DNA of 64,000 bases from a virus. The translations under genes were made by a program, and so were the position numbers. Shown piece after piece: positions 11,034-31,473 of this stretch; the stretch's first letter is position 1, and each line of letters opens with the position of its first letter. The notes below the pieces were generated by a model. That model had not been told where the DNA came from. It saw nothing but the letters and a program-made list of their open reading frames with translations, and searched no databases. The stretch spans positions 26,979-90,978 of IMG/VR virus record IMGVR_UViG_3300044641_010328; one strand, 5' to 3'.

Positions 11034-11297
11034 CTAGAGTCCCTCGTAGTGTTTGAAGTCCTTCTGCGTGAGGACTATCTCGTTTCCGTCGCCGCTGTGC
11101 GCAATTATGCTAATCTTTCCCTTCAGTATGCGAACATCATCGACTGTGTACGTGAGGCCTGACTTCTTGTGGATGATCTTAAAACCGGGTGTGATTAGAA
11201 TCTTTTGGTTCTTTCCCTTTCCGACAGATACTTTCAGTGCTTCCTGAATGTATCTCTTCATCATATCCTGGATGTCATTTCCTGTGATTGTTCTCAT
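11034..11297 (-). CDS. hypothetical protein
   Basis: 87 aa ORF; ATAAATA motif upstream. Confidence 0.7.
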   Translation of the reverse strand: MRTITGNDIQDMMKRYIQEALKVSVGKGKNQKILITPGFKIIHKKSGLTYTVDDVRILKGKISIIAHSGDGNEIVLTQKDFKHYEGL

Positions 11298-11763
11298 CAG
11301 CTGAATCCGCCATTATGTTATTTATCTTCCTTACACGAATTCCTGCCACATTAAGCAGCCCTATGCCACTAGAATCTCTATATTCATCTCTGTAGACGAC
11401 TTCTGAGATTCCTGCGTTGATTATTGCCTTTGCACACATCTTGCAGGGACTCATGCTAATATACATTATCTTCTTCTTCGGGTTGTTATAGTCAAGCTTA
11501 ATAAGAGCATTAACCTCAGCATGAATGAACCCAGACTCTCCTGGATCTGATGATTCACGAGTGTTTGGTCCGCCTGCGTGATCACCGTTATATCCTAGAG
11601 CAAGAAGCTGCGTGTTATCGCTTGTGACTATTATTGAAGCAACCTTGTGAACTGGATCATTTGACCTCTTCTCTATTGTTCCAATGACCTCAATCCAGAT
11701 TTGGTCCCAGGATGGTCGATGCTGGTAGGTGTGTCTGAGATCATCTAGAAAATCACTTGCCAT
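11275..11763 (-). CDS. dCMP deaminase
   Basis: GYNG, HAEVNA and SPCKMC zinc motifs. Confidence 0.92.
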   Translation of the reverse strand: MASDFLDDLRHTYQHRPSWDQIWIEVIGTIEKRSNDPVHKVASIIVTSDNTQLLALGYNGDHAGGPNTRESSDPGESGFIHAEVNALIKLDYNNPKKKIMYISMSPCKMCAKAIINAGISEVVYRDEYRDSSGIGLLNVAGIRVRKINNIMADSADENNHRK

Positions 11764-12604
11764 TGGCTTCTACCTTGCTATCAAAGATTGTCTCAATATT
11801 TGTGTGTGCAGGCAAAGCAAAGCCTGCAGCCTTGCGGTGACCGCCTCCTCCAAACCTCTTTGCAATTTCGCTTACATCGGAGTCTTCGTGATGTGCTCTC
11901 AGACTTACCTTTACCTGCTGCGTATCGTGATCATAGTACCAGATTACCGCGAAGTCGCACTTAGGAGAAAGTGCAGCACCAATCTCGGACATCCAGTGCG
12001 GAGAATTGACAACAAGAACATCCTTACCTCCCATCTTTCTAGGAGCAGCCTGCTTCGCGATCTTGGAGATCACGGTCTTCGAGTATGCGAGAATGTAGGC
12101 GCCGCGCTCCTGCGCACTGTCAACCGCCGAATCGTCGAGGTACTTGTCAAACTCCTCGAAGTCATACGGTACCATGTCAAATGCAGCGGAAAACTCCTTG
12201 CTGTACGGAATTTCCCAACGCCAAAGGTCTCGGTCCTCAATGAACTTAATGAGGCGCGGTGCTTCCTTGCCGGGATGGAAGAACTTCCAAGCAAGCATTG
12301 CTCCGCTGTGGTTCATGTCGAACCGAGTGCAAGTGACATCATGGAGCTCAACAACAGCAGACTTGTGGTGATCGATAATAAGAAGGTTCTTGGCTTCCTT
12401 CATCAGTCGTTTTGTTGTCCCGTTGTCATAGGAGAAGTCGAGAACAACGACATTCTTTCCAGAGACATCTGGAGGTTGCTCTCCGTGCTTTGCTGCGTGA
12501 TATTCAGCTCTATCTCCTAGCAGCTTCCAGGCTGAATATGCTGCACCAAATCCATCAGTGCAATTTGCATGGTAGATCACCAGATCGACGCTACCCGGAT
12601 CCAT
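11753..12604 (-). CDS. DHH/DHHA1 family phosphoesterase
   Basis: YH..C.DG, VLDF, IDHH and GGGGH..AAGF motifs; start placed at the ATG overlapping the TK stop (track start 12640). Confidence 0.9.
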   Translation of the reverse strand: MDPGSVDLVIYHANCTDGFGAAYSAWKLLGDRAEYHAAKHGEQPPDVSGKNVVVLDFSYDNGTTKRLMKEAKNLLIIDHHKSAVVELHDVTCTRFDMNHSGAMLAWKFFHPGKEAPRLIKFIEDRDLWRWEIPYSKEFSAAFDMVPYDFEEFDKYLDDSAVDSAQERGAYILAYSKTVISKIAKQAAPRKMGGKDVLVVNSPHWMSEIGAALSPKCDFAVIWYYDHDTQQVKVSLRAHHEDSDVSEIAKRFGGGGHRKAAGFALPAHTNIETIFDSKVEANGK

Positions 12605-13161
12605 CAGAAATCCTGTACTCGATTGTGGTGATTCCAGCACCTTGGTGCGTATAGCTCAGATCCTCCCACAGCTATCTCCTCTAGGTTTTCAACCTTTCGA
12701 TCTGTGAAATATGCATCTGCTCCGCATGTCGTACAAACTGCAGAGCACTTCTCAACGTGTGTTGCCCAGGGTAGTATCTCCTTGATCTCAGGAAATACAT
12801 TGCACGAGGCAGACATCTCAATAGAGGCAACCACGACTGTGAACCCTGTCCTGTACAGAGAGATGAGCGCATCAGCAACGCCATCAATCATGAATGCTTC
12901 ATCAACTGCAATTACATCGGGTCGTGTCTCTTGTGCAGTCACAAATCTAAGAATATCCTCGCCATTTGATACATTTATTGCAGGAATCTTTCCGCCGTTG
13001 TGCGTGCAGATCTCGCTCTCTGTGTACCTGTCGTCAAGACGGGGCTTGAATGCGAGAATCTTTAAACCCTTGTACCTAAATCTATCGACAAGCGCGATGA
13101 GTCGCGTTGTCTTTGAACCCATCATTGGGCCTGTAAAGACATGAAAACTTGGGTTGATCAT
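12604..13161 (-). CDS. tdk: thymidine kinase
   Basis: GPMMGSKTT, VDEAF, C..C and GG..Y.P.C motifs; start set at the ATGA overlap with the epimerase. Confidence 0.92.
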   Translation of the reverse strand: MINPSFHVFTGPMMGSKTTRLIALVDRFRYKGLKILAFKPRLDDRYTESEICTHNGGKIPAINVSNGEDILRFVTAQETRPDVIAVDEAFMIDGVADALISLYRTGFTVVVASIEMSASCNVFPEIKEILPWATHVEKCSAVCTTCGADAYFTDRKVENLEEIAVGGSELYAPRCWNHHNRVQDF

Positions 13162-14153
13162 TTGAGCTTCCACCATTGAAGAGTCCTCTCTAGTCCATCC
13201 CAAAATGTGACCTTAGGTACATATCCAAAGTCACGTTGAGCAGCTCCATAATCACCTAGCGTGTGCATAACGTCTCCTTGTCGCCAGGGAGCATTAACAA
13301 CCTCAATATTCTTGAACTCACTCATAAGATGCTCAAGAATCTCCTTGTTTGATGTGCGCTGGCCACAGCAAACATTATACCTCTCACCCGTAAACTTTTT
13401 AAGTGAAAACGCTGCAAGCACGTTTGCATCGACGACGTTGTCAACGTAACAAAGATCTCTAGACTGTGTCCCGTCTCCGTCAGACCTCAAGGGCGTTCCA
13501 GCCGATATTGCATTGCACCATGCTGAAACCGCTGTCGAATAGGGTGAATCACCCATCTGTCCCGGTCCAAATACGTTAAAATACCGCAGAAGGACAACAT
13601 CGAGATCGTATAGCCTGCTGAATAGTGCTGAAAAGTCCTCTAGGCATGACTTCTGTAGTGCATAAGGAGACTTTGGACTCTTTGGTTCAGATTCAGACGT
13701 TGGCATGACGTCAGCGCCTCCGTACACTGAGGAGGAGGATGCAGCAACGACTCTTCGTACGTTTCCGACGCACGCCTTGATTAAGATGACATACTTCATA
13801 AGATTTTCATCAGTTGTCTCAACTGGGTGCTCAACAGAGTAAGACACGCGTGGGACGGCTGCCTGGTGAAAAACGACGTCATATTTCTTCTGATGGATCC
13901 TATCAAGCACAACAGGCGACGCAAAGTCATCCTCTATCACCCAGACCTGACTCGGATTTCTGCTATCAATCTGTGACTCGTAGATTGACACAAGATTTCC
14001 AATGAATGTCTTGACATCAAGTCCAGAAAAATTATCCAGACTTCCATTCACCATATTGTCAACCACGTCTACTGTGTGCCCATCAGCAACTAGACGCTTT
14101 ACGAGGTTTGAGCCAATGAATCCGGCTCCTCCCGTCACTAGAACATTTGCCAT
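13158..14153 (-). CDS. NAD-dependent NDP-sugar epimerase/dehydratase (extended SDR)
   Basis: TGGAGFIG, HQAA, ASSSSVYG, YxxxK (YALQK) and LRYFNVFGP motifs. Confidence 0.92.
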   Translation of the reverse strand: MANVLVTGGAGFIGSNLVKRLVADGHTVDVVDNMVNGSLDNFSGLDVKTFIGNLVSIYESQIDSRNPSQVWVIEDDFASPVVLDRIHQKKYDVVFHQAAVPRVSYSVEHPVETTDENLMKYVILIKACVGNVRRVVAASSSSVYGGADVMPTSESEPKSPKSPYALQKSCLEDFSALFSRLYDLDVVLLRYFNVFGPGQMGDSPYSTAVSAWCNAISAGTPLRSDGDGTQSRDLCYVDNVVDANVLAAFSLKKFTGERYNVCCGQRTSNKEILEHLMSEFKNIEVVNAPWRQGDVMHTLGDYGAAQRDFGYVPKVTFWDGLERTLQWWKLK

Positions 14154-14186
14154 GATTTAGATTCTCCTGTGCTCCATTCTATCATG

Positions 14187-15059
14187 CTAAGGAACAATGT
14201 GTGCACAATTTAGGCACACTTTGACTCGAATATCTCTAGATTCAAGACCAATCAAATTCTGAGCCTTGAAACCAATGTGAATCAGCGCATCAAGATCTAT
14301 CTTCAGATTTTTTGGCACGTTGGTTGATCTGCACACAATGTCAAGGACATCATGCTCTGGTCTATGCATAAATCGAACGTATGATATGCAGCTTGAATTT
14401 GCTGTTACAAACCTACGGGATCCTGCTCCCTGACCCGACTCCATCTCTTTTATGATTCTGTCCATAAGATCATCATTTATCTGCCCGTAATATTCCTCTT
14501 CACCTGGCACTGAGAGTGCACCTGGTCCGAGGTTGTCAGACTGAGATGCAATCACCTCAAACTTCAAATCAAGAGATTCATTTCTCCCTGTGGCAGACAG
14601 CGCACTCTCAACATAGTTTGTCATCTTTTCTGTGCTTACAAACTCTCTGCTATGAACAATGTCGCGAACCGCCTCGGGATCTGGAATTCCCTTGCATGTA
14701 ATCACAGAAGGATGGTCTCTCAGCGCCAGTGATTGTGTGTTGAATGCCTCCCACGTGGTCCGTAGTGAACCAAGGTCGTGCATCTCATCGCCTCTGGCAG
14801 CAAACCGCGCTGTAACTGTGCTCCATTCGGGTGCAAGAAAGACGACAACATTATTCAAATCATCGAGAAACCTGTGAAGCTCGCCGGACTCGTGGCTGTT
14901 ATCACGGCCAAAGATCTTTGGATACACAGCACGACTGATGTGACCCCGATCTCGAATATCATACCTGAAGTTTGTAGACCTGTGAAGTTGTCCGTAGAAA
15001 GTTGACTTGCCCGAGAGATCACAGCCCTCAAGAACAATCTGCCTTGTTGGTAGCCTCAT
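14187..15059 (-). CDS. dNMP (thymidylate)-kinase / thymidylate-synthase-like fusion, putative dCMP-modifying enzyme
   Basis: N-terminal EGCDLSGKST P-loop plus DR motif. C-terminal SRR..SC..F..RSTN....D..AHI matches the order of TS active-site motifs. Confidence 0.75.
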   Translation of the reverse strand: MRLPTRQIVLEGCDLSGKSTFYGQLHRSTNFRYDIRDRGHISRAVYPKIFGRDNSHESGELHRFLDDLNNVVVFLAPEWSTVTARFAARGDEMHDLGSLRTTWEAFNTQSLALRDHPSVITCKGIPDPEAVRDIVHSREFVSTEKMTNYVESALSATGRNESLDLKFEVIASQSDNLGPGALSVPGEEEYYGQINDDLMDRIIKEMESGQGAGSRRFVTANSSCISYVRFMHRPEHDVLDIVCRSTNVPKNLKIDLDALIHIGFKAQNLIGLESRDIRVKVCLNCAHIVP

Positions 15060-18000
15060 ACCTGAATCTTCCTCATCTTGTTATTGTTCGTGGAGAATCC
15101 CCAGTTCGGATCCTTGCTGACCTCTGCGATGTAGATCTCGTAGTGGTTAAGTGGCATCTCGCCCCAGATCCGGAGATTGACCGTCTGCATCTCATTATCG
15201 CACACCTGTGCCCGAATGAAACCTTTACCATTCTTGGTCTTCTTTACATTGAAGTCCTTCACCAGGAACCAGCAGATCCCCTTCTCATTGTCGCCAACCT
15301 CAGTGATCGGACCAACCTGTGCCTTCTTGATCTTGGCGATGATGTCCTCGGGGAACATCAGGTCCTCACGAGAGGTCGAGGTGAGATCGAAGTACATCTT
15401 CAGCTTCTCAGATCGAGTCCAATCCGGAAGATTCTCGTAGTTCTCAAACAGCTTCCAGAAGGTGACCTCAGGCTGCCGACCTTCCTTGATCAGCTTCTTC
15501 ATCTCGGTCTTGGTGTATCCGAACCGACCGCGCCTGAGGATGTCGTAGTTCTTTTCCTCAGTCAGGGTCGCCAAGAGCTGGCGGTGATTTGTCACCTTGC
15601 CGGACTTGAAGTCCTCCAGCGATCGAAGCGCCTCGACGCTGCAGAGCGAGGTGAGTGTGGTCTTGTTCACCTTTGAGTGCCTCCAGGCGCCGTCCTCAGT
15701 GTACAGCATGGACTCGATCGAGATGTAGGGGCGGTTGTCCATGATCTCGGCAACAGCCGTTTCGCCTACTCCCTTGATGGAGGACAGCGGCGGAACGAAG
15801 CCCTGCAGTTCGTGGCTGTACATCCAGACAAGACCCGAGCTATTGATGTCTGGTGGGTGGATCTTGAATCCCTGCTCCTTGATCTCAGTTGCAACCTTCG
15901 CAAGGCCTTCGGGATTAGAGTTCTCGGACTGGAGGCAGGTGGCAAGCCATTCCTCCTCGTAGTGCTTGTGAAGCCAGGCAGCGTAGTAGGAATCGACAGC
16001 ATACGATACGGAGTGAGACTTGTTGAAGCCATATGCAGAGAATGCCTCGATCGTCTCGTAGAGCTCTGTCGCATCCTTGACTGACATGCCGTTCAGGTTC
16101 ACCGCACCATCAACAAACCGCTTGCGAAGGTCCTCGCGCTCCTTGGCCTTCTTCTCATTCATGTCCAGAGACTTCTTGACCAGAGTCTTACGCATCTGAT
16201 CAGATTCACCGGGATTGAAGCCAGCAAGCTTCTGTGCCAGGAGCATGAACTGCTCCTGGTAGACGACGAATCCGTGTGTCGGCCCGAGGACGTCCTTCAG
16301 GATTGGATGCTTATAGGTTGCAAGCCCCTTGTTCTTGACCTCGACATACTTCTTGTGGACACCGGCAGCGAGTGGACCAGGACGATAGATCGCGGTGATG
16401 GCGGACAGGTCCTCGATCGAGGTGGGCTTCGCCTCGAGGCAGAACTTTCGAGCACCGCTGTTTGTGAACTGGAAGACCTGTGTGAATCGCCCCTCGTGAT
16501 AGACGTGCTTCCAGACGTCCTGGTCATCCATCTCGTTGTATCGAATGTTTAGATTCTTGTCGAAGAAGTCCTTGACCTGTGCGAAAGTCGGATCCTTGAT
16601 GCCATGCCGTGTCTGGAGGACCATTCGAATGCAGTCCTCAACCATCTTCAGAAGAGAGAGACCGAGGAAGTCGAACTTGAGGAAGCCGTTCTCCTCGAGA
16701 TGCCGGAAGTTCATACCTTCAGACCAGGGTGTCTGGATCTCACCGCGGACTGAGATGACCGGCATGTGATCCTCAAGCTTTGGGCAGATGAGGACGCCGC
16801 CTGCATGCCGGCCAATCGATCGTGTTTCCATGAAGAGAGACTGGACCTGCTCACAGAGCTCCGGATACTTCTCCATGAAGATCTTGTACTTTTCAGAGTA
16901 CTTCATGCAGTCAGCGTGAGACAGGACGTAGGTGCTCTTTTCCTCGTGGTCACCTAGTGCCCTGTGCATGACATCGTCCTGCAGCGGACCAGTGACCTCG
17001 TTCACCTCCTCGAACGGAATACCATGGAACTTTGCGATGTCCTTAATCAGGGACTTCAGCTTCAAGGTATTGAAGTTCGAGACCGGAACAACAGAGGCCT
17101 CTCCGAATAGCTTGCGTGCCTCATCGATTAGAACATCACGATCACCGACGTCAGTGTCGATGTCAGGCCACGCGACCTTGTGGCGACCGAGGAACCGCTC
17201 CCACAGGAGGTCGTACTTGATCGGATCAACCGATGTGATGCCGAGGACGTAGTTGACCAGAGATCCTGCACCCGATCCGCGACCAGGACCGATCAGCGTT
17301 CGATGCTGTGCACGGTCGAAGACGAAATAGAGAGTGAGGAAGTAGTTCTCGAACTTGAGATACTTGATGTCATCAAGCTCCATCTTCAGTCGTTCGACGT
17401 ATTCAGGTTTCGTGTGAAGACCGAGCTCAACAAGACCCTTCTTGCACATGTCAAGGAGCTGGTTGAAGGCAGTCTGCTCGGGCTTGTTAAAGCTCGGAAG
17501 CTTTGCAGAGGAATCGAAGGAGATCTCCTCACACTTTTCCCAGGCGATGTCATGAGTCCGCTCGATCGACTCCTTGACCAGAAGCTCAGTCCCCTTGTAG
17601 AAGTCGTGCTGGTCCTTGTGAGCAAGGTACTCATCCCACATCTGCTGTGCGTTCTTAGGATACAGCTCGCACTTGAGCTCCTCGAAGGCAGGCAGCGTCT
17701 GCTTCTGCATGTCATCAGAGCGGCCGCCCATACGGCCAAGCTTCTTGTAGAGCTCACGCGCCTGCCAGACGTTCGGGCTGTAGTAGTGAGAATCTGCGGT
17801 CGCGATCGTCTTGATGCCGGTGCGCTTCGACAGGTCAATCAGGTGCTTGTTGGTCGTGTGCTGGATGTCAAGCTTGTTGAACTGGAGCTCGAGGAAGAAG
17901 TTGTCGATTCCAACCGCATCGACAAATCGATCCGTGTGATTTTGGAGCTCACGCTGGATCTGCTCATGAGGCTTCTTCAGCGCCTCACCGCGAATCGAGG

Positions 18001-18613
18001 TCGAAGCAAGAAGGCCTCCGACACATGCAGTCGAGACCACAAGCCCTTCACCATGCTGCTTGAGCATGTTGTAATCGATGCGAGGAAACTTGTAGTAGCC
18101 CTCGACGTAGGACCGCTTGACAAGGTTGAACAGGTTCTTGAGCCCAGTTCGATTCTTGGCAAAGACGACCAGATGATACCGGCGCTTCCATTCATCTGCA
18201 TCATCAGAGTCAACAGACTTGGTCTCCTCCTCGTCCTCGACAACAAGGCCTCCGGTCACCTCCTCCTCAGCGAGGATGTCAATCTTCTCAGGCTTGCCTT
18301 CCTCGTTCTTTGCGCGTTTTGCCTCGAAGTGAGCAGCGCGCTTCTTTTCCCAATCAAGAAGAGATGGGACAAAGTAGAACTCGACGCCATAAAGCTGCCG
18401 GTACTTACGTCCCTTACCCTTCATTTTCCTAGAATAGGTGTGAGCGTGAGCGAGGCCGTTGCCGCTACCGTGGTCAGTCAGCGCCCATGCGTCCATGCCA
18501 TTATGGAGGACCCAGTCGATGTGCTTATCAGGATAGCCAAGTCCGTCATTGACGCTGAAACCTGAGTGCGCATGCAAACCGACAAAACGATTCGGTGGTT
18601 CGATGATGCTCAT
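15056..18613 (-). CDS. dnaE: DNA polymerase III alpha subunit (DnaE) with PHP domain
   Basis: LHAHS, TDHG, GPGRGSGAGS, PDIDTD, HAGGV, KFDFLGL, YRPGP and GFNKSH motifs. Confidence 0.97.
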   Translation of the reverse strand: MSIIEPPNRFVGLHAHSGFSVNDGLGYPDKHIDWVLHNGMDAWALTDHGSGNGLAHAHTYSRKMKGKGRKYRQLYGVEFYFVPSLLDWEKKRAAHFEAKRAKNEEGKPEKIDILAEEEVTGGLVVEDEEETKSVDSDDADEWKRRYHLVVFAKNRTGLKNLFNLVKRSYVEGYYKFPRIDYNMLKQHGEGLVVSTACVGGLLASTSIRGEALKKPHEQIQRELQNHTDRFVDAVGIDNFFLELQFNKLDIQHTTNKHLIDLSKRTGIKTIATADSHYYSPNVWQARELYKKLGRMGGRSDDMQKQTLPAFEELKCELYPKNAQQMWDEYLAHKDQHDFYKGTELLVKESIERTHDIAWEKCEEISFDSSAKLPSFNKPEQTAFNQLLDMCKKGLVELGLHTKPEYVERLKMELDDIKYLKFENYFLTLYFVFDRAQHRTLIGPGRGSGAGSLVNYVLGITSVDPIKYDLLWERFLGRHKVAWPDIDTDVGDRDVLIDEARKLFGEASVVPVSNFNTLKLKSLIKDIAKFHGIPFEEVNEVTGPLQDDVMHRALGDHEEKSTYVLSHADCMKYSEKYKIFMEKYPELCEQVQSLFMETRSIGRHAGGVLICPKLEDHMPVISVRGEIQTPWSEGMNFRHLEENGFLKFDFLGLSLLKMVEDCIRMVLQTRHGIKDPTFAQVKDFFDKNLNIRYNEMDDQDVWKHVYHEGRFTQVFQFTNSGARKFCLEAKPTSIEDLSAITAIYRPGPLAAGVHKKYVEVKNKGLATYKHPILKDVLGPTHGFVVYQEQFMLLAQKLAGFNPGESDQMRKTLVKKSLDMNEKKAKEREDLRKRFVDGAVNLNGMSVKDATELYETIEAFSAYGFNKSHSVSYAVDSYYAAWLHKHYEEEWLATCLQSENSNPEGLAKVATEIKEQGFKIHPPDINSSGLVWMYSHELQGFVPPLSSIKGVGETAVAEIMDNRPYISIESMLYTEDGAWRHSKVNKTTLTSLCSVEALRSLEDFKSGKVTNHRQLLATLTEEKNYDILRRGRFGYTKTEMKKLIKEGRQPEVTFWKLFENYENLPDWTRSEKLKMYFDLTSTSREDLMFPEDIIAKIKKAQVGPITEVGDNEKGICWFLVKDFNVKKTKNGKGFIRAQVCDNEMQTVNLRIWGEMPLNHYEIYIAEVSKDPNWGFSTNNNKMRKIQV

Positions 18614-18630
18614 TTGTTTTCTCTCGATTT

Positions 18631-18659
18631 ATTGTATGTGTGCAGTAGCGAGAATACAA
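18631..18659 (-). promoter_or_regulatory. sigma70-like promoter of the dnaE operon
   Basis: TTGTAT-17 nt-TACAAT on the minus strand. Confidence 0.6.
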
Positions 18660-18660
18660 G

Positions 18661-19161
18661 CTAGTTGTCGAAAGCTATGACCATTCGGATCTTGTCAGAT
18701 AGATCCTGGTCTCCGACAATTTCTGCAAGGGTGCCTGTCCAGGCCATCTCCTTGCAATTATTGTCGGGACCCGGCAGAAGGATCCGAGACACTTCCATCT
18801 GTGGAACAGGAATCGTCTCGTGGTAGTTATCAGCAGCCCAGAGATCATCTGGATTTGTCTCCTCGCCATCTTCTTTTCTGTAGGAAAGAAAGAGATCACG
18901 ATTTGCCTGCCTAACTTCTGAAGGTGTTAGCCAGGTGTGGCTGTGAAGATCGCGGCCCCAGACATCAACGAGCTGCCTCCAGGCATTTGAGCAATCAGCC
19001 GGCACACCTCGTTCTGCAGTTTCTAGATTTCCAGCTGGATGCCTGACACCTGCAATGATTCCGAACCAGCTATAGCTTCTTGAGTCATTGATGTGCTCAA
19101 AGGCAATCCAGGGTCCGTCTGATGTCTTGAATTCCCAGAATCCGTGAATATCGCAACCCAC
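18661..19161 (-). CDS. conserved phage hypothetical protein (MGCDIH-type)
   Basis: GCDIH..E, R.Y..F..IAGVR, RGVP.D and HSHTWLT pattern; GGAG RBS; TGTTATAAT extended -10 upstream. Confidence 0.8.
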   Translation of the reverse strand: MGCDIHGFWEFKTSDGPWIAFEHINDSRSYSWFGIIAGVRHPAGNLETAERGVPADCSNAWRQLVDVWGRDLHSHTWLTPSEVRQANRDLFLSYRKEDGEETNPDDLWAADNYHETIPVPQMEVSRILLPGPDNNCKEMAWTGTLAEIVGDQDLSDKIRMVIAFDN

Positions 19162-19262
19162 AGTGCATCTCCTATGACTCTATTATAACACAAGCTCGGC
19201 CCGTCGCACGAGACCATGCGCGGGCCGATTGTTTTGTCGCCGACCGGCGATTAGTGACTGCC

Positions 19263-19893: not shown

Positions 19894-20328
19894 TTATTCG
19901 ATGTGTCCGTAGTAGGGCTCGAAGAGGGGCTTCCCTTCTGCAATGGATCGCTGGAGATAGTCGCGCAGATCCTCATAGGAGGTTGTAACCTTAACGCCAG
20001 ATTGAGCTAGCATCAAATTGAAGTTGCCTGTGAGACCCTGCGCAAAGTAGACAATTGGAACGCCAGCGTTGTATGCCACACCTGCCTCAAAAATTGTGCC
20101 CATGTCCTTATCGCGCGTGTTGCAGAGAACAAAGTCAGCTGTTCGAATGTGATCAACATTTCCTTTGAATGTGTCCTTCTGAACCTGGAGAGAAGCTGTT
20201 GGGGGACAGATAAAGATCTTGCGCGGCGATGCAACATCAAGACCAAGATCTCCTAGCAAATTTTCCAGAGCCTCGACTTCCTCGAGCGCCTTAGGTGTGA
20301 ACCAGCCAGATGCGAGATATACCTTCAT
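19894..20328 (-). CDS. nucleoside 2'-deoxyribosyltransferase / NMP N-glycosidase family
   Basis: KVYLAS..F, I..AD.V, D.GT..E.G.A and NLM motifs; start chosen at the ATG after GAGG. Confidence 0.85.
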   Translation of the reverse strand: MKVYLASGWFTPKALEEVEALENLLGDLGLDVASPRKIFICPPTASLQVQKDTFKGNVDHIRTADFVLCNTRDKDMGTIFEAGVAYNAGVPIVYFAQGLTGNFNLMLAQSGVKVTTSYEDLRDYLQRSIAEGKPLFEPYYGHIE

Positions 20329-20369
20329 TTTGAACCTCACATAAACAATAGTGGCGCACATCGTTGTTT

Positions 20370-26476: not shown

Positions 26477-27427
26477 TTAAAAATCTCTACGAGCCTTGTA
26501 ATTACTCACAATCTCGTCAATCTCTCCTAGAATCTCATTCCAGAGCGTCCGGAAGTGTGGGACACCGCCATCTGTTCCGTTCATGTCATCTCGTGTGGCC
26601 TGGTAGATCGTGTCATTCGGGTGGTAGGTGAGGTGCTTCTCGCTGTCCTCGTCAGGCCAGTAGAGGTTGGTACCTGTTCCATTGCGGAATGTCTTGATGT
26701 AGTGCCATGCAGGCTCGCGAAGATTGATCGCAACATGAGCCTCGGGGAAGACGCGGAGGATCTCACGTGCCATGAGTGCCGCAAGCATGTTATCCTCCTC
26801 AGGCTGGATCTGCTTGTCCTGACGCTGCTTAATGAACATGAAAGCATCGCGGATGTTCATGCGCATGTAGTAGAACGTCTCGAGGCACTTCGGGAGGATA
26901 TGACGAGCGTCCATGAGAGAGATCTTCTTGGAGTCGACCATGTCAACATAGAGCGCCTTTGCATCCTCTACGTGATTCTTCCAGCGCTCATAGAACTCAG
27001 GGCTATTCTGGATCGAGCCTGGAACTAGGCTGCGCTCGTGAGAGAGCCAGCGATCACCTGTGCACTGCGCCGCAAAAGATCCGGCACGATGACGAATGAG
27101 ATGAGTTACTGTCTGAGTATCGATTCCACCCACAAGGAAGGTGAGACCGATTAGCTCCATTGCTGCAGGAAGGGCACGACCCGCAAAGACGTCCTCCATG
27201 GTCTTTGAGAGATCTGCTTCAGAAGCCTCAGCATAGGGAACATGCTTATCAGCCCACGTGGACTTAACGAAACAATAAACTGCCTGTCGGATCGTCTTTG
27301 GATCAGGGCTGTCGACAAGCTCGAGCTTAAGCGCATCGAGGCTATTTACGAACTTGGTTGTAGGCCGCTCGTCGAAACGAATTGCCATGGGAAGGTTAAT
27401 GGGCTGTAGATCTAGATTTTGTGGCAT
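26477..27427 (-). CDS. divergent ThyX-fold flavoprotein (RHRx7C)
   Basis: LTF, THLIRHRAGSFAAQC, DARHILP and N.RD..F..QR motifs; lacks the GHxxxFE His and SxRY. Confidence 0.85.
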   Translation of the reverse strand: MPQNLDLQPINLPMAIRFDERPTTKFVNSLDALKLELVDSPDPKTIRQAVYCFVKSTWADKHVPYAEASEADLSKTMEDVFAGRALPAAMELIGLTFLVGGIDTQTVTHLIRHRAGSFAAQCTGDRWLSHERSLVPGSIQNSPEFYERWKNHVEDAKALYVDMVDSKKISLMDARHILPKCLETFYYMRMNIRDAFMFIKQRQDKQIQPEEDNMLAALMAREILRVFPEAHVAINLREPAWHYIKTFRNGTGTNLYWPDEDSEKHLTYHPNDTIYQATRDDMNGTDGGVPHFRTLWNEILGEIDEIVSNYKARRDF

Positions 27428-27436
27428 TAATTTCTC

Positions 27437-28354
27437 CTATCGAAGATTATCGATGATTTTGGTCAAGTTTTCAACTAGAATCACGCCTTCTTGCCGCTGG
27501 AGTGATTTATTGTAAGGCTGAATTGGGCTAAATGTCCGAAGTCCATGAGAGGCAAACTCTGCTGCATGCTTTGGCGAGTCATCTACACAGAAGGCAACGT
27601 GTCCTGCAAACTTTGACTGGATGATCCAGAGGAACTTCTCTCCGCTGAAGGCTACATCATCAAAGTAGAGACCCGAGCTGTGAAGCCATCGTGCTGTGTC
27701 AAAGAGGCAGAGAGGATTGTCTGCAGGGCGTGCTGTCAGGATCTGGACCCAATACCCAAGTCGCTGTAGCTCATGCGTGAATTCGGCTGCATCACTGACA
27801 GCCGGAATGTCGCGAAGCTTGCGCTCTGCTATGAACTCCTTGAAGAGGCGCTCTGTGTTATGCCCTAGATCTTGAGCAGCTGATGCAGCATAGTACTCTG
27901 GACAGTCATACGAAATCACTGCTCCCTTCGTCTCAGCAAGCCACTCAAAGAACGAGCGTCTGAACTCTGCAAGCACATCATCCATGTCAAGGATTGCTAC
28001 TGGACGACCATCCCAAGACTTCTTAGACAGGTTATGCCTGAAGTGAAGGTAAGCATCCTTGTCCTCGAAGGCATCAACAAGCTCTTTCTCATTGATGTCC
28101 CAGACATTCATGATTGCCATCAGATATCTGATCACATCAATGCTCTCATACAAGATCTTTGTCCGGTCTGGCATCTTGCGATCCATTCGGTGATCTTTGA
28201 AATTGATTGATGATACAAGATCTGAGATCTCAGAATGCAATTCAAGAGCAAATGATTTTGTCATCTGCTCTTTCTCTACGTCTGTGAATGTCTTGCTATC
28301 GAAGAAAAGATTAGAGAATGCACGCTGACGATGCAGCATCTCTTTTAGGGTCAC
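27437..28354 (-). CDS. all-alpha dCTPase/dUTPase-like domain fused to a HAD 5'(3')-nucleotidase
   Basis: N-terminal EISDL..FKDH..ESIDV; C-terminal DMDDV, LTAR, K, VDDSP. Confidence 0.8.
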   Translation of the reverse strand: MTLKEMLHRQRAFSNLFFDSKTFTDVEKEQMTKSFALELHSEISDLVSSINFKDHRMDRKMPDRTKILYESIDVIRYLMAIMNVWDINEKELVDAFEDKDAYLHFRHNLSKKSWDGRPVAILDMDDVLAEFRRSFFEWLAETKGAVISYDCPEYYAASAAQDLGHNTERLFKEFIAERKLRDIPAVSDAAEFTHELQRLGYWVQILTARPADNPLCLFDTARWLHSSGLYFDDVAFSGEKFLWIIQSKFAGHVAFCVDDSPKHAAEFASHGLRTFSPIQPYNKSLQRQEGVILVENLTKIIDNLR

Positions 28355-28363: not shown

Positions 28364-28735
28364 CTAGTATTTACTCTTAATCCTATCGTGAATGATCCTA
28401 TCTTTATTAACGTACGCCTCAAAAAGCTCATCAGGCGTAACTCCCATAATAATCAGAAGAGAGAGGAAGTAGTTAAAAGAGTCAACCATCTCCTCCTTGA
28501 ATGCGGCTCGATCAAAATCGCGAATCTCTGTCTGTCGATGAGACTTTGCGTTCTTTAGCTCTTGCACTGCCTCAAAGACCTCTTCGACACCACGAAGTGC
28601 AAGATCTCTGAGATGTTGCTGTGTAGCCTTGTTTGTCAGATCGACAGGCATCTCTGGATAGACATCTGGGACCTGCTTCTGCAAGGCTGTCATGAAGTCC
28701 TTGCGAAGTTCAAACATTTGATCGAGCTTGTCCAA
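28364..28735 (-). CDS. all-alpha dNTP pyrophosphatase (T4 gp56 dCTPase/dUTPase-like)
   Basis: EEVFEA, EEMVD..YF and GVTPDELFEAY..K....R...Y motifs; TTG start. Confidence 0.8.
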   Translation of the reverse strand: MDKLDQMFELRKDFMTALQKQVPDVYPEMPVDLTNKATQQHLRDLALRGVEEVFEAVQELKNAKSHRQTEIRDFDRAAFKEEMVDSFNYFLSLLIIMGVTPDELFEAYVNKDRIIHDRIKSKY

Positions 28736-28736: not shown

Positions 28737-28976
28737 TTAGTCCTCTAGAGACTCAGGTGGAGACATTGCGGCAATTGCAGCAATCATTCGGTTAAGGCTC
28801 TCATCAAATTTGCTGAGATAGGCGGGATCAGGAGAAAGCTGCTCTCGCTCATCGACAACCAGGCGAATCGTCCTGAGGTTGTCAACGATGTCAGTGCCTG
28901 ATAGAATCGCGATCTGAAGAAGTCGTGCAATCTGTGAGATTGTGTCATCTGATAGTCCATAAGTCGTTGTTGCCAT
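28737..28976 (-). CDS. hypothetical protein
   Basis: 79 aa ORF with AGGA RBS. Confidence 0.75.
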   Translation of the reverse strand: MATTTYGLSDDTISQIARLLQIAILSGTDIVDNLRTIRLVVDEREQLSPDPAYLSKFDESLNRMIAAIAAMSPPESLED

Positions 28977-28985: not shown

Positions 28986-29789
28986 TTATTTCTGAATTTC
29001 TGGGATCCAAAAGGTAGTCCGTCCGTCCTTCGTCGTCTCTCTCTTTACCTCTCTACCTTCTGGATCCTTGGGCTGATTGTAGACTGCAAAGCGGCGACTG
29101 TAATCTCCCTTTTGTCCATCAAAACCTGAAAATGTGTAGATGGTGGCGCCACCAGTCTCATATGACTTCCTAATAACATTCTTAATCACAGAATTGAGTG
29201 TTTTCAACTCATCTTCAGATAAGGTGTTAGTTTCTCTATGGGGACTGAGTCTGCTAAAATACAAGCATTCAGACTTTAGATAGTTTCCTACTCCGCTAAT
29301 TACAGACTGATCCATAAGAACTTCTGCTAGCGTTCTATTCTTCTTCTTAATAGATCTAATAAAGACAGCGTCTGATACATCTTCAGCAAGCATATCTGGA
29401 CCTAAAGTCTTCAGCTTCGCTGCCAGCGAATCTTTTTTGTCAATTAGTTTTAATGTGCCGAAGTTTCTCATATCATTGAAGTAGATCTCTCCTCCGTCGT
29501 CCAAATCAAACTGAATCCTGCTGTGCTTTCTCTCAACAGCTGACCAGCTTCCAGTCATTCCTAAAGTGTTGAAAATATGCATCCCATTGTCAAGACTGAT
29601 GTAGATGAATTTTCCCTTACAGCCAACTTCAGAAACTTTGACATTCAGAAAATGATTCAGACTTTCCCATCCTTCAGGATTCTTCTTTGTGTAGCGTCCT
29701 GATAGAATTCTCATATCAGAAATCTTCTTGTTCAAGATTCTTTCACGAATCCCGTCAGATACAACTTTTACCTCTGGGCCCTCTGGCAC
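28986..29789 (-). CDS. mutM: Fpg/Nei DNA glycosylase (zincless-finger type)
   Basis: PEGPE N-terminus, KGK, LGMTG, D.R.FG, LMDQ..ISGVGNY and GRTTFW.P motifs; no Cys zinc finger. Confidence 0.92.
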   Translation of the reverse strand: MPEGPEVKVVSDGIRERILNKKISDMRILSGRYTKKNPEGWESLNHFLNVKVSEVGCKGKFIYISLDNGMHIFNTLGMTGSWSAVERKHSRIQFDLDDGGEIYFNDMRNFGTLKLIDKKDSLAAKLKTLGPDMLAEDVSDAVFIRSIKKKNRTLAEVLMDQSVISGVGNYLKSECLYFSRLSPHRETNTLSEDELKTLNSVIKNVIRKSYETGGATIYTFSGFDGQKGDYSRRFAVYNQPKDPEGREVKRETTKDGRTTFWIPEIQK

Positions 29790-29803: not shown

Positions 29804-30226
29804 TTATTGACTATTTACCCATCGCCAGTAATTCTTCAGCGCACCGTCCTTGGGCTCTGGAATCTTTGACCACGCATGATTACAGAAGATCTTGTATGCT
29901 GCAGCAGCGTAATCTCCGATCCCATACAGATCTTTCGGATCTCTCTTATCCCACGTCAGATAGTCCTGTGACATCTTGACAAGAGTCTTGCTTCTCCGAT
30001 CTCCGAGACCAAGATCCTTGATTAGATCTCTGACTTCTTCAGTGCTTGCATTCGCAGCGTCCTTTGCAGTTGGCCACCGATCAAAGAACTGCCACATAAG
30101 TGGTTCAGCTTCGACACGCTTTGTCAGATTGCAGAAAATACAAACAACAAAAACACGCCAAGGATCATCCTGGACGTGTTCTTGAATGAGGTTGTAGGGT
30201 GAACGCGGTGCGTGCATACCATACAA
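29804..30226 (-). CDS. MBD4-like HhH G:T/G:U mismatch glycosylase
   Basis: SPYNLIQE..DPW..CIF.N.T, LGL..R, LYGIGDYA and P.D..L..Y..W match the MBD4 glycosylase domain. Confidence 0.8.
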   Translation of the reverse strand: MYGMHAPRSPYNLIQEHVQDDPWRVFVVCIFCNLTKRVEAEPLMWQFFDRWPTAKDAANASTEEVRDLIKDLGLGDRRSKTLVKMSQDYLTWDKRDPKDLYGIGDYAAAAYKIFCNHAWSKIPEPKDGALKNYWRWVNSQ

Positions 30227-30277
30227 TAAAGCAAAAATAAACGTTTTACAAGTCGAGACTCGCTAGACGCTCTTAGA

Positions 30278-30535: not shown

Positions 30536-30544
30536 AAATCCTAA

Positions 30545-30799
30545 CTATCGATGCCTGCCGCAGTGAATGTGTCCATCTCTGTGTCGGTGGCAATCTCTAG
30601 CTGGAGCAGGCGGAGATACGTGACGAATTTGTGCTGGAGCCCATCGTCCTGGAACCCAGTATCCCCATCGATCATAGTGACCTGGCACCCAGCGCGAGGC
30701 TGGAGCTGTGTACACGACAACCTGAGCGTAATGTGCCGGTGGATGCTCAACAGGGTGAGCGTGTGCCATGCAAGCAAAGAGAAGTCCAACTAAAAACAT
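30545..30799 (-). CDS. small secreted/lipoprotein-like protein with WXXGXW repeats and a His-rich tail
   Basis: LLFAC lipobox-like motif, WVPGHY and WVPGRW repeats; AGGAGG RBS. Confidence 0.7.
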   Translation of the reverse strand: MFLVGLLFACMAHAHPVEHPPAHYAQVVVYTAPASRWVPGHYDRWGYWVPGRWAPAQIRHVSPPAPARDCHRHRDGHIHCGRHR

Positions 30800-30840
30800 T
30801 TTGCCTCCTAATATTAATACCGGCTAAGCCAGCAAAATAT

Positions 30841-31473
30841 TCAATAGCCAAATGCTTCAATTGTGTCTCGGAATGGGTTTCCTGGAATTTCTTTGACCTG
30901 ACTTAGCATGTCCTCTGCAAGCCAGCAAATCTCTCTCTGTGCATCTGGCTTCAATCGAAGCCCAAGAAAATGCGAGAATGATCGCCAGTTGAACATAACG
31001 TCCATTGTGATCTGATTTCCATATGGAAGGTAGAAACGTGCAGATTCCTTTGCTCGCTTCCTGCTCATTCCGCCATCAACAAGGCGCCTGAGTGTGTCAT
31101 GATATCGCATGATTGCGTCTTCCATGAAGGCAATGTACCGAGACTGCTCTTCCAGGGGCCAATCTTTGGGAAGATAGTACTTGTCATCCTTCAGCTCCTT
31201 GTACCTCGCTGACTCAGCATTGATTGAGACGCCAATTCTATGCTTTAGTAGCTGAATGTGCGTTGCACAGTCGACAGTTGCGAGAAAGTGCAAAGAGCTT
31301 TTCTCAAATGGCGTCTCGTGACCATTTTCAGCCAGCATCCTTAGAAGCGCCGGAATTCTTTCATGCTTTTCAGGTGTAAGATCTCGGCTTGTGCTTGTCC
31401 ACGCTGATAGCGCATGAACATCATCGCCGCCGTACCACCCGACTAGCTCAACCTTGTTTTCTTGAAATGACAC
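30841..31473 (-). CDS. thyX: FAD-dependent thymidylate synthase ThyX (canonical type)
   Basis: GHETPFE, KHR..ESARY, ARFYLP and N.RS..HF..LR...AQ.EI motifs. Confidence 0.92.
   Translation of the reverse strand: MSFQENKVELVGWYGGDDVHALSAWTSTSRDLTPEKHERIPALLRMLAENGHETPFEKSSLHFLATVDCATHIQLLKHRIGVSINAESARYKELKDDKYYLPKDWPLEEQSRYIAFMEDAIMRYHDTLRRLVDGGMSRKRAKESARFYLPYGNQITMDVMFNWRSFSHFLGLRLKPDAQREICWLAEDMLSQVKEIPGNPFRDTIEAFGY

What the first reader, a model, noticed from the sequence alone, without database searches (positions are those of the whole stretch)
11275..31473. Candidate new cytosine-substitution (DNA base modification) pathway spread over two clusters
Seen in sequence: (i) a kinase-TS-like fusion translationally coupled to dnaE and followed by an NDP-sugar epimerase, TK, a DHH phosphoesterase and dCMP deaminase; (ii) two tandem gp56-like all-alpha dNTP pyrophosphatases (one fused to a HAD nucleotidase) followed by an altered ThyX; (iii) a separate canonical ThyX that can already supply dTMP; (iv) NDT-family, MBD4-like and Fpg enzymes. 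Established: T4 replaces C using a dCTPase (gp56), a TS homolog with Asp (gp42, near the polymerase gene), a dNMP kinase and later glycosylation. Inference: this phage follows the same logic but with a truncated TS domain and a flavin-dependent ThyX paralog, so it may make a different modified cytosine, possibly sugar-decorated. No glycosyltransferase is visible in this window.
Basis: partly seen in the sequence, partly recalled or inferred. Interest (0 to 1): 0.9.

Follow-up and report, generated by a model that had tools for sequence, protein, structure and literature searches.

The report
Phage module for altered DNA cytosine
A fragment of a giant uncultured phage carries a widely conserved gene set, centred on a nucleotide kinase fused to a stripped-down cytosine-type thymidylate-synthase domain and on a rewired second ThyX flavoenzyme. 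The set most likely replaces cytosine in the phage DNA with a modified cytosine, but no chemistry has been measured.

Summary

- **Kinase-TS fusion.** The 290-aa protein after dnaE (ATGA overlap) joins a YorR/Tmk-like kinase to a 148-aa minimal thymidylate-synthase (TS) fold. Its best structural matches are the flavin/O2-dependent dCMP 5-hydroxylase AfhB (PDB 9iqc/9iqu), ThyA, MilA and T4 dCMP hydroxymethylase.
- **Active-site residues.** The catalytic Cys, Arg-Ser and His are kept. Asp sits at the ThyA Asn177 position in 139 of 139 aligned family representatives, which is the cytosine signature. Asn sits at the Asp169 position here, the published 5-hydroxy-dCMP synthase signature, but the family splits 63 D to 62 N.
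- **One conserved module.** In 80 viral contigs the rewired ThyX lies within 10 kb of MazG (77), MazG-NT5C (73), NDT (74) and DnaE (58), followed by the kinase-mini-TS fusion, an epimerase, TK and dCMP deaminase.
- **A cultured carrier.** Geobacillus phage GR1 carries the split core, with the ThyX-like gene overlapping a stand-alone mini-TS gene by one base.
- **Canonical ThyX** coexists with the paralog in 4 of 5 large relatives.

My best reading is a T4-style cytosine replacement using new enzyme forms. The product is unknown, and sugar decoration is unproven.

This scan has noted the same module before on other genomes. I rate it a new variant of a known kind.

The parts
14637..15059 (-). 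N-terminal domain (residues 1-141) of the 290-aa fusion protein P0001: a YorR/thymidylate-kinase-like P-loop nucleotide kinase. Its start codon overlaps the dnaE stop (ATGA).
   Evidence: VIA Z 12.2 to YorR 3kb2, and Z 10-11 to dTMP and deoxynucleoside kinases. Profile E 1.7e-8 to YorR. ATGA overlap.
14190..14633 (-). C-terminal domain (residues 143-290) of P0001: a minimal thymidylate-synthase-superfamily fold. Key residues are S214-R215-R216, C224 (ThyA C146), R244-S245 (R166-S167), N247 (D169), D255 (N177) and H287 (H207). The folate-binding segments and the C-terminal tail are missing.
   Evidence: Model pLDDT 92.7. All top-50 Foldseek hits are TS superfamily, with AfhB 9iqu/9iqc best. In the unbiased VIA search the 7 chains with Z>=8 are all TS superfamily: 9iqc Z 11.7, rmsd 2.9 A, 140 aligned. 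Gapless motif alignment to RB69 gp48. Residue counts over 149 representatives.
15056..18613 (-). DnaE-type replicative polymerase (PHP, pol III alpha, fingers, HhH), immediately upstream of and coupled to P0001.
   Evidence: Pfam. Found within 10 kb of the ThyX paralog in 58 of 80 loci.
13158..14153 (-). NAD-dependent NDP-sugar epimerase/dehydratase. The nearest named models are UDP-sugar 4-epimerases (TviC, GalE), all below their cut-offs.
   Evidence: It follows the P0001 homolog in distant loci.
12604..13203 (-). Thymidine kinase.
   Evidence: Pfam TK E 1.5e-35.
11753..12640 (-). DHH/DHHA1 phosphoesterase.
   Evidence: Pfam. PHROG 4771 E 3.5e-79.
11275..11763 (-). dCMP deaminase.
   Evidence: Pfam dCMP_cyt_deam_1 E 4.4e-19.
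19894..20361 (-). Nucleoside 2'-deoxyribosyltransferase family protein with the catalytic Glu motif kept.
   Evidence: Pfam E 4e-13. PDB 6evs E 2.3e-11. Within 10 kb of the ThyX paralog in 74 of 80 loci.
26477..27427 (-). Rewired ThyX paralog P0002 (316 aa). The RHR motif and the Arg174 equivalent are kept. Changes are H53->L, S88->C, R90->G, Y91->D and N85/E86->A/A. It has N- and C-terminal extensions.
   Evidence: Pfam Thy1 71 bits. NCBIfam thyX below cut-off. Residue mapping onto T. maritima ThyX. More than 1179 homologs. 26-sequence alignment.
27437..28354 (-). MazG-like all-alpha NTP pyrophosphatase domain fused to an NT5C/HAD 5'-deoxynucleotidase.
   Evidence: Found in 73 of 80 loci.
28364..28735 (-). 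Stand-alone MazG-like NTP pyrophosphatase (123 aa), weakly similar to RB69 gp56 dCTPase.
   Evidence: PHROG 12184 E 3.9e-19. BLASTP to gp56 E 2e-5 over 49 aa. Found in 77 of 80 loci.
28737..28976 (-). Conserved 79-aa protein of unknown family that travels with the module.
   Evidence: No Pfam hit. Found in 71 of 80 loci.
28986..29789 (-). Fpg/Nei-family DNA glycosylase.
   Evidence: Pfam, three domains. Found in 45 of 80 loci.
29804..30226 (-). MBD4-type HhH-GPD mismatch glycosylase domain.
   Evidence: PDB MBD4 E 7e-33 over the full length. Found in 38 of 80 loci.
30841..31473 (-). Canonical ThyX (flavin-dependent thymidylate synthase).
   Evidence: Pfam Thy1 119 bits. Aligns to solved ThyX structures with the His-Glu-Thr-Pro-Phe-Glu and Ser-x-Arg-Tyr motifs.

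Best explanation
This is the nucleotide-pool part of a T4-style pathway that replaces dC in phage DNA with a C5-modified cytosine, built from unusual enzyme forms.

**Shown**
- The gene after dnaE encodes a nucleotide kinase fused to a minimal TS-superfamily domain.
- That domain keeps the Cys nucleophile and the Arg-Ser and His nucleotide contacts. It always carries Asp at the position that selects cytosine over uracil in this superfamily.
- This gene co-occurs across a large group of uncultured large phages, and in split form in Geobacillus phage GR1. Its companions are a ThyX-derived flavoprotein paralog, one or two MazG-type NTP pyrophosphatases (one fused to a 5'-nucleotidase), an NDT enzyme and a DnaE polymerase.
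- A canonical ThyX, TK and dCMP deaminase are kept alongside.

**Inferred**
1. The MazG enzymes deplete the canonical dNTP (dCTP) and yield dCMP.
2. The mini-TS domain attacks C6 of dCMP and installs a C5 substituent. Because it lacks a cofactor site of its own, the electrophile comes from a flavin. This is most plausibly a hydroxyl from a flavin hydroperoxide, as in AfhB/gp48 5-hydroxy-dCMP synthases. The rewired ThyX would then act as the flavin-reducing or flavin-carrying partner. A one-carbon unit passed through the ThyX-type flavin is the alternative.
3. The fused kinase phosphorylates the product, and DnaE incorporates it.
4. dCMP deaminase plus canonical ThyX keep dTTP supplied.
5. The MBD4-like and Fpg/Nei glycosylases repair deamination and oxidation products of the modified base.
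6. The adjacent epimerase may supply a sugar donor for later glycosylation.
For: - **TS fold of the C-domain.**: Z 11.7 to 9iqc, and all 7 chains with Z>=8 among 48,161 are TS superfamily.
- **Kinase domain.**
- **Catalytic and specificity residues.** They align without gaps to RB69 5-hydroxy-dCMP synthase gp48. They are near-invariant over 149 representatives: C 142/145, R-S 142-143/144, Asp at the N177 position 139/139.
- **Published rules.** N177D marks dCMP as substrate. D169N marks a flavin/O2 hydroxylase. Known 5-hydroxy-C clusters hold a Tmk-like kinase next to the synthase, near the polymerase gene (PMC13326640; RB69 layout).
- **Co-occurrence and order in 80 loci.**
- **Whole-record checks.** The mini-TS is present in 9 of 10 relatives' records. 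Both ThyX types are present in 4 of 5. No ThyA is present.
- **GR1.** The ThyX-like gene overlaps a stand-alone mini-TS gene by 1 nt. A kinase homolog, NDT, DnaE, a glycosyltransferase and a nitroreductase lie in the same block.
- **ThyX paralog.** It keeps the flavin-binding RHR motif and Arg174 but loses His53, Ser88, Arg90 and Tyr91.
- **Repair.** The MBD4-type glycosylase fits repair of deaminated C5-modified cytosine.
Against: - No measurement shows modified DNA.
- The mini-TS domain has no sequence-level match to Pfam Thymidylat_synt, and its hhalign match to gp48 is not significant on its own.
- The D169 position is split 63 D, 62 N and 10 E across the family. The hydroxylase signature therefore does not define the family, and the product may differ between lineages or be something else.
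- The domain is 148 aa, against 217-238 aa for the known hydroxylases. Cofactor binding is unexplained.
- A MazG fused to a 5'-nucleotidase, together with NDT and TK, looks more like nucleoside-level recycling or dT/dU removal than T4's dCTP-to-dCMP feed.
- An Fpg/Nei enzyme could attack 5-hydroxycytosine.
- No glycosyltransferase is linked to the module, and an 87%-complete relative shows none.
- One relative (a 46-kb fragment, 12% complete) has only the kinase part after dnaE.
- Contig L094 has a 218-aa TS homolog as well as the mini-TS, so the mini-TS may not be the primary modifying enzyme.
Confidence: 0.55

Rival explanations
1. The module manages the nucleotide pool without replacing any base. 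The MazG enzymes, NT5C, NDT, TK, DHH and the deaminase recycle host nucleotides and sanitise the pool for a fast-replicating giant phage. The mini-TS and the ThyX paralog then serve an auxiliary role: a nucleotide-binding or regulatory subunit of the kinase, a second and differently regulated thymidylate synthase, or a flavin reductase.
For: - Most components are ordinary salvage enzymes.
- NDT looks like a true nucleoside deoxyribosyltransferase.
- The mini-TS is always fused or adjacent to the kinase.
- No DNA glycosyltransferase is linked to the module.
- No modification data exist.
Against: - Near-invariance of the Cys nucleophile, Arg-Ser, Asp and His over 149 diverged representatives points to catalysis rather than mere binding.
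- The ThyX paralog has lost residues needed for dUMP and folate handling. A canonical ThyX is kept beside it in 4 of 5 relatives, so it is not a spare thymidylate synthase.
Confidence: 0.2
2. The module modifies uracil or thymine, not cytosine. It would work like the 5-hydroxymethyl-dU phages (SPO1/SP8, phiW-14, ViI, M6). dCMP deaminase supplies dUMP, MazG-NT5C acts as dTTPase plus dTMPase, the ThyX paralog makes a C5-modified dUMP, and the kinase activates it.
For: - The pre-replicative 5hmdU pathway uses dTTPase, dTMPase, dCMP deaminase and a dNMP kinase (PMC8989533).
- A pyrophosphatase fused to a 5'-nucleotidase fits removal of a nucleotide rather than feeding it onward.
- The ThyX paralog descends from a dUMP enzyme and keeps the Arg174 equivalent.
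Against: - Asp at the ThyA N177 position is universal in the mini-TS family, which is the cytosine signature (PMC13326640).
- A canonical ThyX and TK are retained, and both would keep making dTMP.
- The MBD4-type T:G / U:G glycosylase would be hazardous in a genome with modified T. This point rests on my own knowledge of MBD4.
- No 5-HMUDK-type or aGPT-Pplase-type genes turned up among the ORFs I scanned. That scan covered only part of the contig.
Confidence: 0.12
3. The module makes a free modified base or nucleoside rather than modified DNA. It would parallel MilA (a TS-type CMP hydroxymethylase) plus MilB (an NDT-family N-glycosidase) in mildiomycin biosynthesis. The product could be an inhibitor, a signal or a salvage intermediate.
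For: - A TS-type cytosine enzyme and an NDT-family protein co-occur in 74 of 80 loci.
- MilA is among the structural matches, at Z 10.1.
Against: - The tight link to the replicative polymerase, with translational coupling, and the fused kinase both point to a dNTP destined for DNA.
- The NDT matches a transferase (6evs) rather than a nucleotide hydrolase.
Confidence: 0.05

Closest known systems
Flavin/O2-dependent 5-hydroxy-dCMP synthases of the TS superfamily (phage HY126 AfhB, PDB 9iqu/9iqc; RB69 gp48; DLP3 gp80; RL38JI gp216), with their neighbouring Tmk-like kinase
   Same: - TS fold; this is the best structural match.
- Cys nucleophile, Asp at N177, and in this phage Asn at D169.
- A YorR/Tmk-like kinase partner (Table 1 of PMC13326640).
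- A position next to the replicative polymerase gene.
   Different: - The domain is 148 aa, not 217-238 aa, and has no recognisable cofactor-binding segments.
- It is fused to the kinase.
- The D169 position is D in half of the family.
- It is accompanied by a ThyX paralog, MazG-NT5C and NDT, which the published clusters lack.
- No linked DNA glycosyltransferase or NDP-arabinose genes are present.
- The polymerase is DnaE, not family B.
T4 dCMP hydroxymethylase pathway (gp56 dCTPase, gp42, gp1 kinase, cd deaminase, td)
   Same: The overall logic is shared: a pyrophosphatase, a cytosine-type TS homolog, a kinase, a deaminase and a separate thymidylate synthase. Asp sits at the specificity position, and T4 dCH is a structural match at Z 8.8.
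   Different: - The folate-binding part of the TS fold is absent.
- The thymidylate synthase is ThyX rather than ThyA.
- Similarity of the pyrophosphatase to gp56 is marginal.
- An extra flavoenzyme paralog is present.
Canonical flavin-dependent thymidylate synthase ThyX (T. maritima TM0449, PDB 1o26 and others)
   Same: The paralog P0002 scores above the Pfam Thy1 threshold. It keeps the RHR motif, the Arg174-Leu-Pro motif and the core helices.
   Different: - His53, Ser88, Arg90, Tyr91, Asn85 and Glu86 are replaced.
- It has about 70-aa N-terminal and 90-aa C-terminal extensions.
- It scores below the NCBIfam thyX cut-off.
- It coexists with a canonical ThyX.
MilA/MilB of mildiomycin biosynthesis
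   Same: A TS-type cytosine-nucleotide enzyme is paired with an NDT-family protein.
   Different: The setting is phage replication, the TS-type enzyme is fused to a kinase, and the NDT resembles a transferase.

Membership tests
Thymidylate synthase superfamily (fold level) | The TS alpha/beta fold, with the central sheet carrying the Cys strand and helix J. | tested here: met
   C-domain model pLDDT 92.7. VIA wide search: the 7 chains with Z>=8 out of 48,161 are all TS superfamily, and the next hit is Z 6.4. The Foldseek top 50 are all TS superfamily.
Thymidylate synthase superfamily (sequence family Pfam PF00303) | A match to the Thymidylat_synt profile above the gathering score. | tested here: not met
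   No hit at E<=1 in a six-frame search of the genome and a relative. No Pfam hit for P0001. One stand-alone relative gives 12.7 bits.
Thymidylate synthase superfamily | A catalytic Cys (ThyA C146) with the Arg166-Ser167 and His207 contacts. | tested here: met
   Gapless alignment to RB69 gp48. C in 142/145, R in 142/144, S in 143/144 and H in 125/127 of the representatives.
Thymidylate synthase superfamily | Folate-binding segments (ThyA residues about 50-120 and the C-terminal tail). | tested here: not met
   The domain is 148 aa and ends two residues after the His207 equivalent. About 90-120 residues of the full enzymes have no counterpart.
5-hydroxy-dCMP synthase (AfhB / RB69 gp48 type) | Asp at ThyA N177 (dCMP substrate). 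| tested here: met
   D255, with Asp in 139/139 aligned representatives.
5-hydroxy-dCMP synthase (AfhB / RB69 gp48 type) | Asn at ThyA D169 (the diagnostic residue in PMC13326640). | tested here: inconclusive
   N247 is present in this phage, its close clade and GR1. Across the family the position is D 63, N 62, E 10.
5-hydroxy-dCMP synthase (AfhB / RB69 gp48 type) | A bound flavin and O2-dependent hydroxylation. | not testable with these tools
   This needs purified protein, spectra and 18O2 labelling.
5-hydroxy-dCMP synthase gene cluster | A Tmk/YorR-like nucleotide kinase next to the synthase. | tested here: met
   It is fused in one polypeptide. The N-domain gives Z 12.2 to YorR 3kb2, the same PDB hit that the paper lists for DLP3 gp78.
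5-hydroxy-dCMP synthase gene cluster | DNA glycosyltransferases and sugar-nucleotide genes in the cluster. | tested here: inconclusive
   Only an epimerase is adjacent. No GT1/GT2 matches occur in the 91-kb record or within 10 kb in 80 loci. GT clusters occur elsewhere in 4 of 6 relatives' records. The record is only 27% complete.
ThyX / FDTS (for the paralog at 26477-27427) | Pfam Thy1 above threshold, and the RHR flavin/nucleotide motif. | tested here: met
   71.3 bits against a 24.8 cut-off. RHR is invariant in 26 sequences.
ThyX / FDTS (for the paralog at 26477-27427) | The equivalog score, and the residues His53, Ser88, Arg90 and Tyr91. | tested here: not met
   NCBIfam thyX gives 46.8 bits against an 87.9 cut-off. 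The alignment to T. maritima ThyX gives Leu, Cys, Gly and Asp at these positions.
gp56-type / MazG all-alpha NTP pyrophosphatase | A profile match and similarity to T4/RB69 gp56. | tested here: inconclusive
   Pfam dUTPase_2 (21.9 bits) and PRA-PH (19.3 bits) are just below their cut-offs. PHROG 12184 gives E 3.9e-19. BLASTP to RB69 gp56 gives E 2e-5 over 49 aa. No PDB sequence hit. Substrate was not tested.
MBD4 glycosylase domain | Full-length similarity to the MBD4 catalytic domain. | tested here: met
   phmmer E 6.9e-33, with residues 6-138 aligned to 4ew4.

The most novel reading that the evidence does not exclude
The mini-TS domain and the rewired ThyX form a two-part pyrimidine C5-modifying enzyme of a kind not yet described. 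The TS-type half has kept only the Cys-nucleophile nucleotide site and lost its cofactor site. The ThyX-type half has kept the flavin and lost its nucleotide-phosphate and folate residues. The flavoprotein would hand an oxygen or a one-carbon unit to dCMP held by the mini-TS. The result would be a modified cytosine that replaces dC in a cosmopolitan group of large marine phages and in Geobacillus phage GR1. Support comes from the 1-nt gene overlap in GR1, from co-occurrence in relatives and from the complementary losses. The complex predictor was closed, so no test of binding could be run.
Probability: 0.25. Interest if true: 0.9.

Novelty: new variant of a known kind. Interest (0 to 1): 0.75.

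Why it matters
Phage DNA hypermodifications decide the outcome of restriction, CRISPR and other defences, and they supply enzymes for biotechnology. Flavin-dependent hydroxylation of dCMP by TS homologs was described only in 2025-2026.

This module would extend that chemistry, or a sister chemistry, in three ways:
- to a much smaller TS core fused to its kinase;
- to a dedicated ThyX-derived flavoprotein family with more than 1000 members in metagenomes;
- to abundant uncultured marine giant phages that replicate with DnaE.

The idea is directly testable, because a cultured phage (Geobacillus phage GR1) carries the core genes.

Tried and rejected
- **Sequence searches of P0001 and P0002 against PDB.** Nothing useful for the TS-like domain or the ThyX paralog as single sequences. 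The profile of the whole fusion found only YorR.
- **BLASTP of the two ThyX copies against each other.** No alignment.
- **Megablast of the 20-kb region against cultured phages.** No match.
- **GlnII as an amidoligase.** I considered the glutamine-synthetase-like gene at 31678-32694 as a thymidine-hypermodification amidoligase, as in the GR1 neighbourhood. I rejected this because it is a near-equivalog GlnII (454.6 bits).
- **Epimerase as GDP-fucose synthase.** I considered the epimerase as GDP-fucose synthase feeding the fucosyltransferase cluster of relative G001. I rejected this because it scores only 29.9 bits on Fcl, against 137-147 bits on UDP-sugar 4-epimerases.
- **Glycosyltransferases near the module.** tblastn with the G001, GR1 and RB69 enzymes found none in 80 loci or in the 91-kb record.
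- **Stand-alone mini-TS alignment (A4).** It was too diverse for a locus scan. A narrower alignment gave two loci.

Full report
**What the record is**

The window is the last 64 kb of a 90,978-bp viral record. CheckV rates the record 27% complete, and IMG/VR labels it a provirus cut-out. A 140-kb relative is rated 39% complete. Relatives of 200-236 kb are rated 61-87% complete. The virus is therefore a giant phage of roughly 270-340 kb.

It has T4-like baseplate, sheath, gp32, UvsX/RecA and DnaB-type genes, but a DnaE polymerase. All genes of the finding lie on the minus strand.

**Check of the observation**

- dCMP deaminase, DHH phosphoesterase, thymidine kinase and an NDP-sugar epimerase nearest to UDP-sugar 4-epimerases;
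- DnaE and an NDT-family protein that matches a true N-deoxyribosyltransferase and keeps the catalytic Glu motif;
- two paralogous MazG-like pyrophosphatases, one fused to an NT5C nucleotidase;
- a divergent ThyX (71 bits) and a canonical ThyX (119 bits);
- Fpg, and an HhH-GPD protein that is a full-length match to the MBD4 glycosylase domain (E 7e-33).

The 290-aa gene starts inside the dnaE stop codon (ATGA). The link to gp56 is weak.

**The 290-aa protein**

It has no Pfam, NCBIfam or PDB sequence match except a P-loop. A 23-sequence alignment gave a confident model (pLDDT 89.5).

Residues 2-141 are a YorR/thymidylate-kinase-like kinase (Z 12.2; profile E 1.7e-8).

I folded residues 143-290 alone, using a more diverse alignment built from distant homologs (pLDDT 92.7). 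The results were:
- All top-50 Foldseek hits are thymidylate-synthase superfamily members. The best two are the dCMP hydroxylase AfhB of phage HY126.
- In an unbiased comparison with 48,161 representative chains, the only seven with Z>=8 are AfhB (9iqc: Z 11.7, rmsd 2.9 A, 140 of 148 residues), three ThyA chains, a plant DHFR-TS, MilA and T4 dCMP hydroxymethylase. The next hit is Z 6.4.
- Z values within 1 unit count as ties, so AfhB is not clearly closer than ThyA by that measure.

A profile comparison with RB69 gp48 is not significant by itself. It does place the motifs without gaps: C224 on the catalytic Cys, R244-S245-T246-N247 on Arg-Ser-Gln-Asn, and D255 on Asp.

**How this relates to published work**

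Lee et al. 2026 (PMC13326640) show the following:
- RB69 gp48, DLP3 gp80, RL38JI gp216 and other ThyA homologs make 5-hydroxy-dCMP with a flavin and O2.
- Asp at ThyA N177 marks dCMP as the substrate.
- Asn at D169 is diagnostic for the hydroxylases.
- A thymidylate-kinase-like gene lies beside the synthase.
- The hydroxyl is later glycosylated by GT-B enzymes.

In RB69 the cluster lies directly downstream of the polymerase gene. The protein here is a natural fusion of that kinase with a much smaller version of that enzyme. In this phage it carries both signature residues.

**Family-wide residues**

A profile search of 1.84 billion representatives found 373 clusters. Most are fusions of about 300 aa, and some are stand-alone proteins of 160-200 aa. 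The stand-alone forms belong to no Pfam family.

Over the best 149 representatives:

| Position (ThyA number) | Result |
|---|---|
| Cys (C146) | present in 142 of 145 |
| Arg-Ser (R166-S167) | present in 142-143 of 144 |
| His (H207) | present in 125 of 127 |
| N177 position | Asp in 139 of 139 |
| D169 position | D 63, N 62, E 10 |

The cytosine signature is therefore universal. The hydroxylase signature is not.

**The ThyX paralog**

More than 1179 homologs exist, at about 325 aa and highly conserved. Mapping onto T. maritima ThyX shows that the RHR motif and the Arg174-Leu-Pro motif are kept. His53 becomes Leu, Ser88 becomes Cys, Arg90 becomes Gly, Tyr91 becomes Asp, and Asn85/Glu86 become Ala/Ala.

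Four of five large relatives have this paralog plus a canonical ThyX, and none has ThyA. It is therefore not the phage's thymidylate synthase.

**Co-occurrence**

I fetched eighty IMG/VR loci around the paralog (50-94% identity). Within 10 kb they hold:

| Gene | Loci out of 80 |
|---|---|
| MazG | 77 |
| NDT | 74 |
| MazG-NT5C | 73 |
| 79-aa unknown protein | 71 |
| DnaE | 58 |
| Fpg | 45 |
| MBD4-like glycosylase | 38 |
| full-length kinase-mini-TS fusion (28-33% identity) | 29 |

The order is constant: glycosylases, 79-aa protein, MazG, MazG-NT5C, ThyX paralog, NDT, DnaE, fusion, epimerase, TK, DHH, deaminase. The count of 29 for the fusion is limited by the 10-kb flank.

In whole records the mini-TS is present in 9 of 10. 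The exception is a 46-kb fragment whose post-dnaE gene encodes the kinase part only.

In this phage it is split by about 7 kb of other genes, among them fibre-like ones.

**A cultured carrier and other layouts**

Geobacillus phage GR1 (79 kb siphovirus) has, in one block:
- the ThyX paralog (46% identity);
- a 151-aa stand-alone mini-TS, overlapping the ThyX paralog gene by one base, with the Cys, Arg-Ser-Ser-Asn and Asp motifs (hhalign 92.6%, E 4.4e-7);
- the kinase as a separate 145-aa protein (96.5%);
- NDT (43% identity), a DnaE-type polymerase, a glycosyltransferase and a nitroreductase.

Its published description says nothing about its DNA.

A 72.6-kb contig (L094) has a translationally coupled row of genes: a gp56-like MazG, a 218-aa TS homolog with Asp at N177, a divergent ThyX-like protein, a Rossmann flavoprotein, NT5C, the kinase, the mini-TS and dCMP deaminase. 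There the mini-TS coexists with a larger TS homolog.

**Glycosylation**

No glycosyltransferase is in the 91-kb record or near the module. The 140-kb relative has a 20-gene glycan cluster about 100 kb away. It holds two GT4, three GT2, GT10, GT11, GDP-mannose dehydratase, DegT and a PD-(D/E)XK nuclease.

Three of five other relatives have GT clusters, but an 87%-complete one shows none. Sugar decoration of the DNA stays open.

**Interpretation**

I put the reading that the module makes a C5-modified cytosine nucleotide for incorporation by DnaE at about 0.55. Within that, 5-hydroxy-dCMP made with flavin help from the ThyX paralog is the single most likely chemistry. One-carbon transfer is not excluded.

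The rivals are:
- pool management without base replacement (0.2);
- a uracil- or thymine-directed pathway (0.12);
- a free-base product as in mildiomycin synthesis (0.05).

**Earlier notes of this scan**

Other agents reported the same fusion and the same ThyX paralog on other genomes, with similar readings. I reached the structural and co-occurrence results independently here. Those notes are not counted as evidence.

Noticed in passing
window 31678-32694 (-): A type II glutamine synthetase (GlnII, 454.6 bits, just under the 500 equivalog cut-off) encoded by the phage. It sits between the canonical ThyX and ClpP and is conserved at 83% in the 140-kb relative.
   Followed up: partly
window 10334-11032 (-): A 232-aa protein with an Fe/Mn superoxide dismutase C-terminal domain, downstream of the dCMP deaminase.
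   Followed up: no
window 54011-56893 and 56920-59961 (-): Two adjacent, very long tail-sheath paralogs (960 and 1013 aa), each with the sheath subtilisin-like and C-terminal domains only at its end.
   Followed up: no
window 1761-2561 and 37222-38178 (-): Two separate 5'-3' exonuclease (FEN/RNase H-type) genes in one phage fragment.
   Followed up: no
L011 (G001:C1:106001-126000), about 7141-19451 (-): The 140-kb relative has a long one-strand glycan cluster: two GT4 (also hitting the GT4-conflict family), a PD-(D/E)XK nuclease, GDP-mannose 4,6-dehydratase, a DegT-like protein, a GDSL-like protein, GT10 and GT11 fucosyltransferase-like proteins, and three GT2. The target (virion protein, host surface or DNA) is unknown.
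   Followed up: partly
L094 3535-9058 (+): A 72.6-kb viral contig has a coupled row of genes: gp56-like MazG, a 218-aa TS homolog (Cys, Arg-Ser-Leu-Glu, Asp), a divergent ThyX-like protein with RTR instead of RHR, a GxGxxG flavoprotein, NT5C, the kinase, a stand-alone mini-TS and dCMP deaminase. This phage therefore has two TS-type enzymes plus a ThyX-type one.
   Followed up: partly
L001 (Geobacillus phage GR1, OK896991) 23306-24538 of the locus: Besides the core module, GR1 has an amidoligase-family protein and a gamma-glutamylcyclotransferase about 10 kb downstream. These gene types are associated with thymidine hypermodification clusters, so GR1 may carry more than one DNA modification.
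   Followed up: no
L024 15304-15849 (+): In one relative (a 46-kb fragment) the gene after dnaE encodes only the kinase part (181 aa) and stops just inside the mini-TS region. This is either a lineage that lost or moved the mini-TS, or a truncation.
   Followed up: partly
whole record G000: IMG/VR labels the 91-kb record a provirus, yet the same fusion protein lies on a 167.6-kb contig elsewhere and CheckV gives 27% completeness. The 'provirus' trimming probably removed bacterial-looking parts of a giant phage genome.
   Followed up: no
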